This document shows, piece by piece, positions 49,501 to 52,500 of a stretch of 64,000 nt of DNA. Source of the stretch: Mytilus californianus. Taxonomy: Eukaryota. Location: NCBI RefSeq assembly GCF_021869535.1, contig NW_026262734.1, positions 91,202,001 to 91,266,000 on the forward strand, written 5' to 3'. The position numbers are program-made. Each line of letters begins with the position of its first letter. Within the stretch, counting starts at the first letter, position 1.

Positions 49501-52500
49501 TAAACCTGCTGAGATCTGAACAGACAGTCGGAATGATTACTATAGGGCACAGAGAACCTTATAATTTGGATCCTAAGAACCCCTTTACCAATGCAAGCAG
49601 ATCCTGCTCCACATGTTACACCCATCATATTGCTCATGTAAATTATTGAGTTATAACTGTATAACCGATTATAATCTATTATCTGAATAATGCACTGCAT
49701 CTACCTTATACTGCACAGGTCACATGTACTTTAGCTAGGCCAATAGTTTCAGCTTTGCAATCAAAGATCTTGAGGGTTATAACCTGGCTTAAAAAAAATC
49801 CACACTTTTCTAATTTCAGTGCTTGCAGGGTGAAACTAAATTCAGAAAATAAAAATTTTCCTATGATTACTATAAAAAAATTGATGAAAAACTGAAATGT
49901 TCTGATACCTAAATGTTACCTCATACACATAAAAATACAGAAAAACCTCATAAAAAACATGAAACCTGTAATTATTCATGTCCATTTATAACAAATTAAT
50001 CAAGGAAACGATTAAAAATTGATAATTTAACAATTCAAAAGTTCATAATTTCAATTCAAAATTGAAAACACTATTTTGGATAGAACTGTTGCAAGGCATA
50101 TCACAAGATTTTCCTGTGGGTTTTGGTTCATTAAATGTCTCTTTTTTCTTTGCATTATCCTGTTTTTTGGTAGATTTACACGATTATCCTTTTCTGTCAA
50201 TGTTTTAATGAACTCAAGATTTATCTGCATTGTAGACAGATTCAAAATATTGATCATATCTTATCTTTGAGCATAGAATCAGCACAGGGCTCCTTTTTAC
50301 CATAGAATATAGAATACCACAGAACGACCAAAATATTGTCTAAAAATTATACAACAAAATGCAAAACTATGTACAGAGTAATTCATTTCTAAAATGAACA
50401 CTTCCTCTGTAGAATTCCCTTTCTTAGAATATTAAGATAAATATATGTATGTGTATGAGTACGTTGTTGATCGCAATACTGGCTTTAATACAACAGTGGA
50501 GATAGTGCCATCGATTTATTGAAGATGTGCAAGATCAGTTGTAAGCTTTCAACACTTGGTGCGCAAACTACAGTGTCTTCTCGATGGTTCCAATCAATCT
50601 CTGTTTACAAAAAGAAAGAGTCGGAATATTTTTATGTGTTTTGCTTGTTGGAATGTGAAAACACCTTGTGTTGTTCTTTACTTATTTTATCCACAACATT
50701 ATTTGAATGGTAATTTTTTAACTTCGTGACAGTAATTGTTTTCTTGGACTAGCTTTCTTGATATATTCGTCTGGTTCTAGAACATGTCTACTTGGTGAAA
50801 CATAATTAGTCTTTAGTATGATCGTCTTTTCTGGAATTCTTGGAGTTCCAGTTTTGAGAAACATCCTTCTTTTCTCAATTTATAGTCTACTGTAATGAAG
50901 TGTGTCGCCTGCCGCTACACCCCTTTTCAGCTTGTTGATGTTTTTAGTTAGTATAGGTCCCATACTATAGCTCCATACTCCATCATAGATATGAATAGCA
51001 AACTATATGCCTGTCATTGCCTTCCTGTGGGCAGTATCTCAAATTTCTTCCGTTGGATATATAAGTCGTCCATTTTAGATTTTTGAAATGTTTTAGGCCT
51101 AATTAGCATGGGTTATGTTGGACTAGTTGTAAGTGTCCGTTTAAACTATACAACTACTGGGTTTAGTTTTGTATGCTTATAATGTAGCATTGAACCTCAT
51201 TCCCCAGTTGTTTGTCCTTACTTCTACTAGTAGATGTTTAAGATCTTCGTGAAGAATGTCATGGTATTTTATTATCTTGGTGGTTCTATCAAATAGGCAG
51301 GCAGCCATCGGCTAATAATAATAAGTAGTTCTATAGTTTAAACGGACACATACTGACAATCTGACTGGATCCGGGATATTGTTTATATAACACAGAAGGA
51401 GTAACGGTTCTAAACCTTAGTCTGCTTTGATGAACGCCCGAGTCAATTGTTACGTCTTCATGTTCTTCTTCCTCTACTAACACTTTCATTTTTACTGTTT
51501 GTCAAGAACATTTTTAGCTAGTTGTTAAATTATCCTCTTAATTCTATATTCGTCAATTTTTATAGTAGTTTCTAATGGGGCACGGTGTCAAAAGCTTTGG
51601 AAAAATCTAAGATGGCAATGTCAGTTTGGAGTCTGGTTGTATATGCTTTCATAAGATCGTTTTAAGTGACTTGTGACTGGGTTTCGCATGTGTAGCCATA
51701 TATGAGTCGACGATTTAATGATTTTAAAAAATCCTGCTTTTCTAGATCTCTGCAATGCCTGCATAATTTGAAAAGATTATTATCAGTTCGGGTGTTATTT
51801 AACTTGCACTTTCAATGAGTATTCAGTTTGGGATTTCATCCGATCTAGAAACTTTTAATTGGTTCACGTCTATGAGCAGTTTTAGAGCCCCTTTTCTGTT
51901 ATAGGTAGGTTCGGTAATGGGTACTGGATGCGTCTTGTTGTTTCTGGAACTGTTGTGGACTTGTCTGTGGTGAAGACACAAGTAGGTAAAGTGTCTTTCC
52001 AGGATATTTGATTCCATTGTTTTCCCATGAAAAAAAACTGCCTTGTGAGAGCAGCCTTATTGACAAAAAAATAAGTTCCTTTTGTTTGTTATTACAGAGC
52101 ATTACAACTTCCACCAGAAACTTGGCTACGGTTCCATCTTAATCATGGAAGTATAACATGGATTACTATTGGACCAACTGGACAAGTTGGACTTAGAACA
52201 CTAGGAGAAACAGGATTTATGCCTGCTAATGTCACATTCTATTCACAGTTGTAGTACTTTCCTGCTTTTATGTTTATTGATATCATTTCTATATTTGTAT
52301 TAATATTAAATTTATAACATATTGTTTTGATTCAAACCATCATCAATATGAATATTGTAAACGAACTTATTTTCGCGGAAACTGTATTTCGCGTTTAGCC
52401 CTTTCTTTCCGGCTTTTCGGCATCAATTTATTTTTGCGTTGTTTTTTATTATCATGATGTAATTATATATGGAAAGGTCTAATGTTACGTATTCGTGACA

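What the first reader, a model, noticed from the sequence alone, without database searches (positions are those of the whole stretch)
52060..52254. Second, diverged but intact copy of the PGAM5 terminal exon
Seen: 3.7 kb downstream of copy A is a full copy with its own acceptor, same phase and an open frame. By eye about 11 synonymous changes versus about 8 replacements in the alignable part (A>T, LS>FH, VR>IG, R>Q, S>T, D>N), plus a different tail (VTSVL* versus VTFYSQL*). No other PGAM5 exon is duplicated. Inference: mutually exclusive last exons giving two C-termini, one losing two arginines; the excess of silent change suggests both copies were constrained.
Basis: partly seen in the sequence, partly recalled or inferred. 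Interest (0 to 1): 0.68.

Follow-up and report, generated by a model that had tools for sequence, protein, structure and literature searches.

The report
Duplicated alternative last exon of PGAM5
A PGAM5 phosphatase gene from an AT-rich, non-human genome carries a second, diverged but intact copy of its last coding exon that has evolved like working coding sequence, so it probably supplies an alternative protein tail, which is a common kind of exon duplication.

Summary
Exon B (52098-52254, + strand) is a full copy of the PGAM5 terminal exon A (48341-48491). It has the same phase and an open frame.

B looks selected. Omega is 0.10-0.19. Omega = 1 is rejected (p <= 3e-4). So is omega = 0.5, the floor if B had drifted while A was constrained (p 0.001-0.033). 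The last 17 intron bases before B match A's 17 of 17, and the flanks are unalignable.

Use of B as an alternative last exon is inferred. No transcript data or related genomes could be reached.

B replaces residues aligned with human R265 and R269. R269 lies in the basic substrate cleft, and R269E reduces filament formation (PMC6355839).

Each would yield a truncated protein. Two decayed relics lie further upstream. An inverted repeat also brackets A.

Verdict: a probable new member of the well-known class of tandem-duplicated C-terminal exon swaps. Interest is moderate.

The parts
28817..28989 (+). PGAM5 coding exon 1: start codon, hydrophobic N-terminal segment and the WDYNWD motif; donor CAG|gtgaat
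   Evidence: Regex WD..WD on the six-frame translation found one hit in the window; sequence read; donor.
41948..42135 (+). Coding exon 2, with the RHG catalytic motif
   Evidence: Sequence. Its only PDB hit at E <= 0.001 is human PGAM5 (5muf_A, E 2.8e-4).
43017..43231 (+). Coding exon 3
   Evidence: Pfam His_Phos_1, 31.7 bits against a cut-off of 21.7. Best PDB hit is human PGAM5, E 8.5e-19.
45008..45141 (+). Coding exon 4, with the CHAN histidine motif. It ends in phase 2 at a consensus donor TAG|gtaagt. This is the exon that would splice to A or to B.
   Evidence: Best PDB hit is human PGAM5, E 2.5e-18, with the alignment ending at chain residue 152.
47440..47480 (+). Oldest decayed relic of the acceptor plus 5' part of the terminal exon; the acceptor CAG now reads GTG
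   Evidence: Alignment A1, row older_47425; sequence.
47575..47652 (+). Older decayed relic of the same segment, with an 11-base deletion and a broken pyrimidine tract. It shares two base states with B against A.
   Evidence: Alignment A1, row old_47575; tblastn E 0.006.
47612..48402 (+). Tandem array, period 83, 9.5 copies, 96% matches. Each unit is the last 21-26 intron bases plus the first 57-62 bases of exon A. There are eight decoy acceptors, with exon-start positions 47677, 47760, 47843, 47926, 48009, 48092, 48175 and 48258, ahead of the real one at 48341.
   Evidence: Tandem Repeats Finder; site list and in-phase translations; alignment.
48341..48491 (+). Terminal exon A (copy A), 49 codons plus TGA
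   Evidence: PDB hit to human PGAM5: 64.2 bits, E 3.4e-17.
48496..48501 (+). AATAAA 5 bases after the stop of A; more copies at 48555, 48641 and further on
   Evidence: This is weak evidence in DNA that is 67.5% A+T.
45993..46198 (+). Left arm of a diverged inverted repeat that brackets the array and exon A
49409..49580 (+). Right arm of that inverted repeat, downstream of exon A and its AATAAA signals
   Evidence: Local alignment score 59 against shuffles at 28.2 +/- 3.2. Predicted RNA duplex -83.2 kcal/mol against -29.6 +/- 4.5. Base-rate control.
52056..52064 (+). Two overlapping branch-point-like YTNAY pentamers (CTTAT, TTGAC), with their A at -39 and -35 from exon B
   Evidence: Weak: constitutive exon 2 has none in its upstream 60 bases.
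52076..52097 (+). Acceptor tract of exon B: 20 of 22 bases, and the last 17 of 17, identical to the tract before exon A
52098..52254 (+). Terminal exon B (the finding): 51 codons plus TAG
   Evidence: PDB hit to human PGAM5: 54.8 bits, E 3.7e-14. Selection tests.
52305..52310 (+). ATTAAA 51 bases after the stop of B; AATAAA at 52525
   Evidence: Weak evidence in A+T-rich DNA.

Best explanation
Exon B is a selectively maintained, homologous alternative last exon of a PGAM5 orthologue. It arose by tandem duplication of the terminal exon. Shown: B has kept its acceptor, phase, frame and stop, and it has evolved under purifying selection. Inferred: exon 4 (donor at 45141/45142) can splice either to exon A at 48341, ending at the signals just after A, or past A to exon B at 52098, ending after B. 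The two proteins would be identical up to the residue aligned with human C239 and would differ only in the last roughly 50 residues. In the human enzyme this segment forms the whole F-type dimer interface and the fold-back tail. Inferred from the human structures: the B form keeps the core of that segment. It changes L-S to F-H next to the interface arginine. It removes the two basic residues aligned with human R265 and R269, one of which lines the basic substrate cleft. It also has a tail two residues longer and more aromatic. The expected result is a PGAM5 with altered substrate-cleft charge, altered higher-order assembly, or both, rather than a dead enzyme.
For: (1) Homology and intactness. 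Both exon peptides have human PGAM5 as their best solved-structure hit.
(2) Selection, counting method: Nei-Gojobori gives 14 synonymous and 10 non-synonymous differences on 35.2 and 102.8 sites. dS is 0.57, dN 0.10, omega 0.18, Fisher p 1.5e-4.
(3) Selection, codon model: maximum likelihood gives omega 0.10-0.19 under three codon-frequency settings. Omega = 1 is rejected at p <= 3e-4. Omega = 0.5, the lowest pairwise value possible if B were neutral and A perfectly constrained, is rejected at p 0.001, 0.011 and 0.033.
(4) Simulation with A constrained (omega 0.05-0.1) and B neutral, 4000 replicates per setting, 8 settings. The frame stays open in 14-37% of replicates. Among those, omega <= 0.184 occurs in 0.4-1.6%. 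The mean number of non-synonymous differences is 15-35, against 10 observed.
(5) The last 17 intron bases are 17 of 17 identical and 20 of 22 identical, while synonymous sites differ at 40%. By my arithmetic, P is about 2e-4 and 2e-3 at 60% neutral identity. Beyond that the flanks do not align better than shuffles: upstream 484 of 500 shuffles reach the observed score, downstream 175 of 500. This is the pattern of an old duplication in which only functional parts survive.
(6) Replacements are not strongly lopsided. With human as outgroup, 5 are B-derived and 2 A-derived. One more (codon 8) is resolved as A-derived by the older relic.
(7) Functional reading: Chaikuad 2017 (PMC5501728, passages) places all dimer contacts in the C-terminal part and shows that loss of residues 279-289 gives monomers. 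Ruiz 2019 (PMC6355839, passages) places R269 in the basic substrate cleft and shows that R269E reduces filament length and formation.
Against: No transcript evidence of any kind: use of B is inferred from the DNA alone. No related genome could be examined, so conservation of B across species is unknown. The selection tests rest on 46 codons and 24 differences. The weakest setting gives only p = 0.033 against omega 0.5. The simulation uses A as a stand-in for the ancestor and a simple mutation model. A recent loss of function would be invisible. Five B-derived replacements fall at positions where A and human agree, including two arginines and the pair next to the interface arginine. This also fits relaxed constraint. 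The extreme tail differs by what looks like a one-base indel after the shared VT codons. A lies upstream of B with nine acceptors and several AATAAA signals, so B may be reached rarely. Poly(A) hexamers and YTNAY motifs are weak evidence in A+T-rich DNA.
Confidence: 0.6

Rival explanations
1. B is an unused relic: a duplicated exon that is never spliced in, or no longer is, and merely still looks intact.
For: No expression data. B carries 5 derived replacements at sites that A shares with human, including R>G and R>Q, and a frameshift-like tail. The locus clearly generates non-functional partial copies of this same exon: eight decoys and two decayed relics. In the neutral simulation the frame stays open in 14-37% of replicates, so an open frame alone proves little.
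Against: Pairwise omega of 0.10-0.19 is below the 0.5 floor for a neutral B (p 0.001-0.033, 0.4-1.6% of intact replicates). The acceptor is 17 of 17 identical although synonymous sites are 40% diverged. By contrast, the two old partial relics have both lost an intact acceptor context.
Confidence: 0.2
2. Exon turnover: B is, or is becoming, the main working terminal exon, because A is compromised by eight decoy acceptors in front of it. Any decoy would give a protein truncated after about 18 residues of the exon. The inverted repeat bracketing A would help loop A out.
For: Nine acceptors share an identical 12-mer and near-identical context from about -25 to +60, and only the last gives the full C-terminus. 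Decoy products would lack the strands and tail that the human protein needs for dimerisation and activity (PMC5501728 and PMC6355839, passages). None of the nine A-type acceptors has a YTNAY pentamer in its upstream 60 bases, while B has two. The inverted repeat 45993-46198 / 49409-49580 has a predicted duplex of -83 kcal/mol against -30 +/- 4.5 for shuffles.
Against: A is the copy closer to human: 64.2 against 54.8 bits, and by my count of the alignment midlines 32 of 45 against 29 of 44 identities. A keeps both arginines. The array is young (96% matches) and may be polymorphic, or its copy number may be mis-assembled. The YTNAY test is weak, since exon 2 also has none. Inverted pairs this strong occur elsewhere in the window: 7 of 300 random same-geometry pairs reach the score, 2 of which are this locus. 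Splice choice cannot be predicted from sequence here.
Confidence: 0.12
3. Assembly artefact: A and B are two haplotypes or a collapsed or expanded duplicate wrongly placed in tandem.
For: Nothing positive. It is raised only because repeat-rich invertebrate assemblies do contain such errors and the neighbouring 83-base array is hard to assemble.
Against: A and B differ at 17% of bases, with 40% at synonymous sites, and their flanks are unalignable. This is not allelic divergence. The window has no N.
Confidence: 0.03

Closest known systems
Tandem duplicated exon substitution events that swap homologous C-terminal regions (Martinez-Gomez et al. 2022, PMC9741552, passages read)
   Same: Two adjacent homologous exons in one gene, with the same phase, each able to end the protein, giving isoforms identical except for a homologous stretch. 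That paper counts 77 C-terminal swaps among 236 human events and calls terminal swaps highly enriched. It reports that most changes between the two versions are conservative.
   Different: Those events are defined by annotated transcripts, and no transcript evidence exists here. PGAM5 is not named in the main text of that paper or of PMC8373072; their supplements could not be opened. Here several changes are not conservative (R>G, R>Q, S>H).
Human PGAM5-L and PGAM5-S isoforms
   Same: The same gene family, and variation made by alternative use of a 3' exon (stated in PMC11214171 and PMC4040672, passages). By my recall, not checked here, the two human forms share the first 239 residues. That would be the same junction as exon 4 to exon 5 in this window, where exon 4 aligns up to the human residue I number as 239.
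   Different: By recall, the human short form ends in a short unrelated hydrophobic tail rather than a homologous copy of the last exon. According to PMC4040672 the short form is not expressed in mouse cells. The event here is a homologous exon pair and would keep the fold complete.
Looping-out of alternative exons by intronic RNA pairing (competing base-pairing in mutually exclusive exon clusters; inverted repeat elements flanking skipped exons); known to me from recall only
   Same: A long imperfect inverted repeat brackets exon A with its array and poly(A) signals. It could bring the exon 4 donor close to B in transcripts that read through.
   Different: Nothing shows that the pairing forms or matters. 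Comparable inverted pairs occur at about 2% of random places in this window. Terminal-exon choice does not need such a device.
Unused duplicated exon (pseudo-exon)
   Same: A duplicate exon lying outside the minimal gene model, without expression evidence, next to clearly non-functional partial copies.
   Different: The frame, acceptor and stop are intact, and omega is well below the neutral expectation.

Membership tests
PGAM5 (mitochondrial Ser/Thr phosphatase, histidine phosphatase superfamily branch 1) | Histidine phosphatase domain with the RHG-type motif and the second catalytic histidine | tested here: met
   RHG in exon 2 and CHAN in exon 4. Pfam His_Phos_1 is above its cut-off for exon 3 (31.7 against 21.7 bits). 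It is below the cut-off for exons 4, A and B tested singly, and there is no hit for exon 2.
PGAM5 (mitochondrial Ser/Thr phosphatase, histidine phosphatase superfamily branch 1) | N-terminal hydrophobic anchor followed by the WDxNWD multimerisation motif | tested here: met
   One WD..WD match in the six-frame translation of the window. It reads WDYNWD at the end of exon 1 and is preceded by a hydrophobic stretch. The motif's role is from PMC5501728 and PMC6355839 (passages). No membrane prediction was run.
PGAM5 (mitochondrial Ser/Thr phosphatase, histidine phosphatase superfamily branch 1) | Closest solved relative is PGAM5 for every exon | tested here: met
   Exons 2, 3, 4, A and B were searched one by one. 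Human PGAM5 chains are the top hits each time. Exon 1 was not searched. The joined protein was not searched or folded.
Tandem duplicated exon substitution (homologous alternative last exons) | Two neighbouring homologous exons on one strand of one gene, with the same phase and both frames open | tested here: met
Tandem duplicated exon substitution (homologous alternative last exons) | Both copies under purifying selection | tested here: met
   Omega 0.10-0.19. Omega = 0.5 rejected at p 0.001-0.033. Simulation 0.4-1.6%. Acceptor 17 of 17 identical. The sample is small (46 codons).
Tandem duplicated exon substitution (homologous alternative last exons) | Each copy is included in mature transcripts, one at a time | not testable with these tools
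   No transcript data were reachable.
Tandem duplicated exon substitution (homologous alternative last exons) | The exon pair is conserved in related species | not testable with these tools
The remaining genome collection is bacterial and archaeal and was not used.
Pseudo-exon or decaying duplicate | Stops, frameshifts, a lost splice site, or omega near the neutral expectation | tested here: not met
   B has none within the 46 aligned codons, and omega is below the neutral floor. The only frameshift-like change is in the last 3-5 codons. The two upstream relics do meet this definition.

The most novel reading that the evidence does not exclude
The gene is caught in the middle of replacing its terminal exon. 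A duplication-prone acceptor region has repeatedly spawned partial copies of exon A: two decayed relics and a young eight-unit array. These copies act as decoy acceptors and would give truncated, monomeric, inactive PGAM5. The full-length older duplicate B is then the only decoy-free route to a complete enzyme. It is reached by looping out A through the flanking inverted repeat, so B rather than A would be the main source of working protein in this genome. Alternatively, the decoy array could be a built-in dial on PGAM5 output.
Probability: 0.12. Interest if true: 0.6.

Novelty: new member of a known kind. Interest (0 to 1): 0.4.

Why it matters
The last exon of PGAM5 encodes, in the human enzyme, all of the F-type dimer interface and the fold-back tail. 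It also encodes R269, a basic residue in the substrate cleft that influences filament formation. A natural pair of homologous versions of just this segment would be a ready-made experiment on how oligomer state and cleft charge tune PGAM5. It would also show that C-terminal isoform diversity in this gene arose independently of the human long and short forms. The decoy-acceptor array beside it is a clean natural test case for how a spliceosome chooses among nine near-identical acceptors. If B turns out to be unused, the locus is simply another duplicated exon in a repeat-rich genome.

Tried and rejected
Ten open frames between and just beyond A and B (49491-52761, both strands) gave no Pfam family above its cut-off; best E was 0.07. 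I therefore could not show that a mobile element carried B there. My first impression that the minus-strand frame at 51823-52056 looked like reverse transcriptase was not borne out.

Rfam at gathering thresholds and ARAGORN found nothing in 45000-54500.

The promoter and terminator scan uses bacterial consensus sequences, matched its shuffles (24 found against 21.2 +/- 4.0), and is irrelevant to this eukaryote-type gene.

Alignment of 200 bases on each side of A and B showed no similarity beyond shuffles. blastn of the introns and the A-B spacer against the window found only local repeats and the inverted repeat.

Gene conversion was considered as the cause of the low divergence and rejected as the cause of the low omega. 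Conversion resets both classes of site, so a neutral B would still show omega of 0.5 or more since the last event. The differences are spread along the exon.

Using the array units to polarise changes works for only two sites, because the units descend from the A lineage.

A relative-rate comparison with human as outgroup (5 B-derived against 2 or 3 A-derived replacements) is not significant by my own binomial arithmetic.

Literature: the search 'PGAM5' + 'exon duplication' gave 2 unrelated reviews. 'PGAM5' with mollusc or invertebrate words, needing 3 of 6 terms, listed 15 of 15,507 papers, and only one of those 15 held PGAM5, once. 'PGAM5', '239', '255', 'isoform', 'splice' listed nothing useful. 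PMC8496500 has no passage on isoforms.

Not run: structure prediction, fold search, complex prediction and the protein atlas.
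Full report
WHAT THE WINDOW IS. The window has 32.5% G+C and no N. On its + strand it carries a PGAM5-type gene in five coding exons.
- Exon 1, 28817-28989: start codon, a hydrophobic stretch and WDYNWD.
- Exon 2, 41948-42135: the RHG motif.
- Exon 3, 43017-43231.
- Exon 4, 45008-45141: the CHAN motif, ending TAG|gtaagt.
- Terminal exon A, 48341-48491.
Each of exons 2, 3, 4, A and B, searched singly, has human PGAM5 as its best solved-structure hit. Exon 3 alone passes the Pfam His_Phos_1 cut-off. I do not take the contig for human. 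By my count of the midlines, the terminal exon peptides are 32 of 45 and 29 of 44 identical to the human chain, and the base composition and introns are unlike human. The joined protein was not searched, aligned or folded, so there is no whole-protein model of either isoform.

THE OBSERVATION. Exon B lies at 52098-52254, 3757 bases after the start of A. It follows its own acceptor, starts in the same phase and reads open to a TAG. Similarity to A runs from 52081 to 52237: 84.7% over 157 bases, E 1.9e-45. Over 46 alignable codons, 24 of 138 bases differ, with 8 replacements and 11 purely silent codons. The tails are VTSVL* and VTFYSQL*. The tails look related by a one-base indel right after the shared VT codons. 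Among exons 2, 3, 4, A and B, only the terminal exon has a second copy in the window; exon 1 was not in that query.

IS B MORE THAN A DEAD COPY? Four lines of evidence say yes.
- Nei-Gojobori counting gives 14 synonymous and 10 non-synonymous differences on 35.2 and 102.8 sites. dS is 0.57, dN 0.10, omega 0.18, Fisher p 1.5e-4.
- The key null is not omega = 1. If A is constrained and B drifts, the pairwise omega should be about 0.5 or higher. A pairwise codon model gives omega 0.10-0.19. It rejects 0.5 at p = 0.011 (F1x4), 0.001 (F3x4) and 0.033 (equal frequencies), and rejects 1.0 at p <= 3e-4.
- In simulations with A at omega 0.05-0.1 and B neutral (8 settings of 4000 replicates), the B frame stays open in 14-37% of replicates. 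Only 0.4-1.6% of those reach the observed omega. They carry on average 15-35 non-synonymous differences, against 10 observed.
- The last 17 intron bases before B are identical to those before A, and 20 of 22 match, although synonymous sites are 40% different. Everything further out is unalignable. This is what an old duplication looks like when only its working parts are kept.
Gene conversion cannot produce the low omega, because it resets both kinds of site. The caveats are the small sample, the simple models and blindness to a recent death of B.

WHICH COPY CHANGED? With the human chain as outgroup, five replacements are B-derived: L>F, S>H, R>G, R>Q and D>N. Two are A-derived: I>V and T>S. 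Codon 8 is resolved as A-derived because an old relic of the exon shares the B state. Five against three is not a significant asymmetry (my arithmetic), and a freely drifting B should be far more lopsided. The B changes are, however, the more radical ones.

WHAT THE B FORM WOULD DO. I anchored human numbering on F244, which the papers name and which falls in the aligned ALQF. On that numbering, the B changes sit at human 252, 253, 265, 269 and 284.
- Chaikuad 2017 (PMC5501728, passages) reports that dimer contacts lie exclusively in the C-terminal portion: the alpha4-beta5 loop, strand beta6 and the tail. R251 contacts the partner's L242 carbonyl. Constructs lacking residues 279-289 are monomers.
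- Ruiz 2019 (PMC6355839, passages) reports that the monomerising F244E mutant has no activity. It also reports that R269 lies in the positively charged substrate cleft and that R269E reduces filament length and formation.
The whole segment that differs between the A and B forms is therefore the dimerisation and tail module. B keeps R251, the beta6 residues and the GFMP tail start. It alters the two residues after R251, drops two positive charges at and near the cleft, and lengthens the tail by two residues. My inference is an active-fold isoform with changed cleft charge and possibly changed self-association. This is not shown. In this species both copies have L where human has F244.

Exon A is the last unit of a tandem array: period 83, 9.5 copies, 96% matches, at 47612-48402. 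Each unit is the last 21-26 intron bases plus the first 57-62 exon bases, and the junction lies in a shared AACTT. Eight decoy acceptors have the same 12-mer as the real one. Read in phase, each gives about 18 correct residues, then an out-of-frame run through the next unit to a TGA, 40 residues in all. That product would lack the strands and tail needed for dimers in the human enzyme. The decoys share a base that A, B and the old relic lack, so they are one young clade. Two older relics lie upstream, one with an 11-base deletion and one whose acceptor CAG now reads GTG. This spot has therefore duplicated repeatedly. Its partial copies decay, whereas the full copy B has not. No A-type acceptor has a YTNAY pentamer within 60 bases upstream, while B has two. 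Exon 2 also has none, so this counts for little.

A POSSIBLE AID TO SKIPPING A. A diverged inverted repeat (45993-46198 and 49409-49580) brackets the array, exon A and its AATAAA signals. Its alignment score is 59 against 28.2 +/- 3.2 for shuffles. The predicted RNA duplex is -83.2 against -29.6 +/- 4.5 kcal/mol. Pairing in read-through transcripts would bring the exon 4 donor near B. As a control, 7 of 300 random pairs of the same geometry in the window score as high, and 2 of those are this locus. It is unusual but not unique, and I rate its role as speculative.

COMPARISON WITH WHAT IS KNOWN. Homologous alternative exons made by tandem duplication are a well-described class. In the human set, 77 of 236 events swap C-terminal regions, an enrichment over expectation (PMC9741552, passages). 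A search for PGAM5 with 'exon duplication' gave only two unrelated reviews. Human PGAM5 does have long and short forms made by alternative use of a 3' exon (PMC11214171 and PMC4040672, passages). By my recall only, they diverge after residue 239, the same junction as here, but the short tail is not homologous to the long one. B is therefore best filed as a probable new member of a known kind.

WHAT STAYED UNCHECKED. Three things could not be reached: transcript evidence, presence of B in related species, and the reality and copy number of the array. The remaining genome collection is bacterial and archaeal and was not used. The organism was not identified.

VERDICT. Constraint on B is supported at modest statistical strength. 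Alternative use of B is plausible but untested. Confidence in the main reading is 0.6 and interest is 0.4. The neighbouring decoy-acceptor array is the more unusual feature.

Noticed in passing
window 47612-48402: A tandem array of 83-base units, each carrying the exon A acceptor and about the first 60 exon bases. This gives eight decoy acceptors ahead of the real one. Each would give a truncated reading that ends at a TGA in the next unit.
   Followed up: yes
window 47440-47480 and 47575-47652: Two older, decayed partial copies of the same acceptor-plus-exon segment. One has lost the acceptor AG and the other has an 11-base deletion. The spot has duplicated repeatedly.
   Followed up: partly
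window 45993-46198 and 49409-49580: A diverged inverted repeat bracketing the array and exon A. The predicted RNA duplex is about -83 kcal/mol. No other copy of it was found in the window.
   Followed up: partly
window 45002-45010: The exon 4 acceptor reads cagcag, a tandem NAGNAG-type acceptor that could add or drop one glutamine. The human alignment fits the form that includes the glutamine.
   Followed up: no
window 28990-41947: Intron 1 of the gene is about 13 kb long. Between about 35700 and 39500, the open-frame listing shows the same peptide-like words over and over on both strands, which suggests a long tandem repeat or satellite.
   Followed up: no
window 44380-44806: A tandem repeat of period 159, 2.7 copies, 87% matches, inside intron 3.
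   Followed up: no
window 54386-54895: The next gene on the same strand starts about 2.1 kb after exon B. It is an open frame with a strong BTB_2 (potassium-channel tetramerisation type) domain, E 3e-27.
   Followed up: partly
window 51129-51158 and 51324-51353: A 30-base inverted repeat, 93% complementary, with 165 bases between the arms, in the spacer between A and B. It could be a small foldback element.
   Followed up: no
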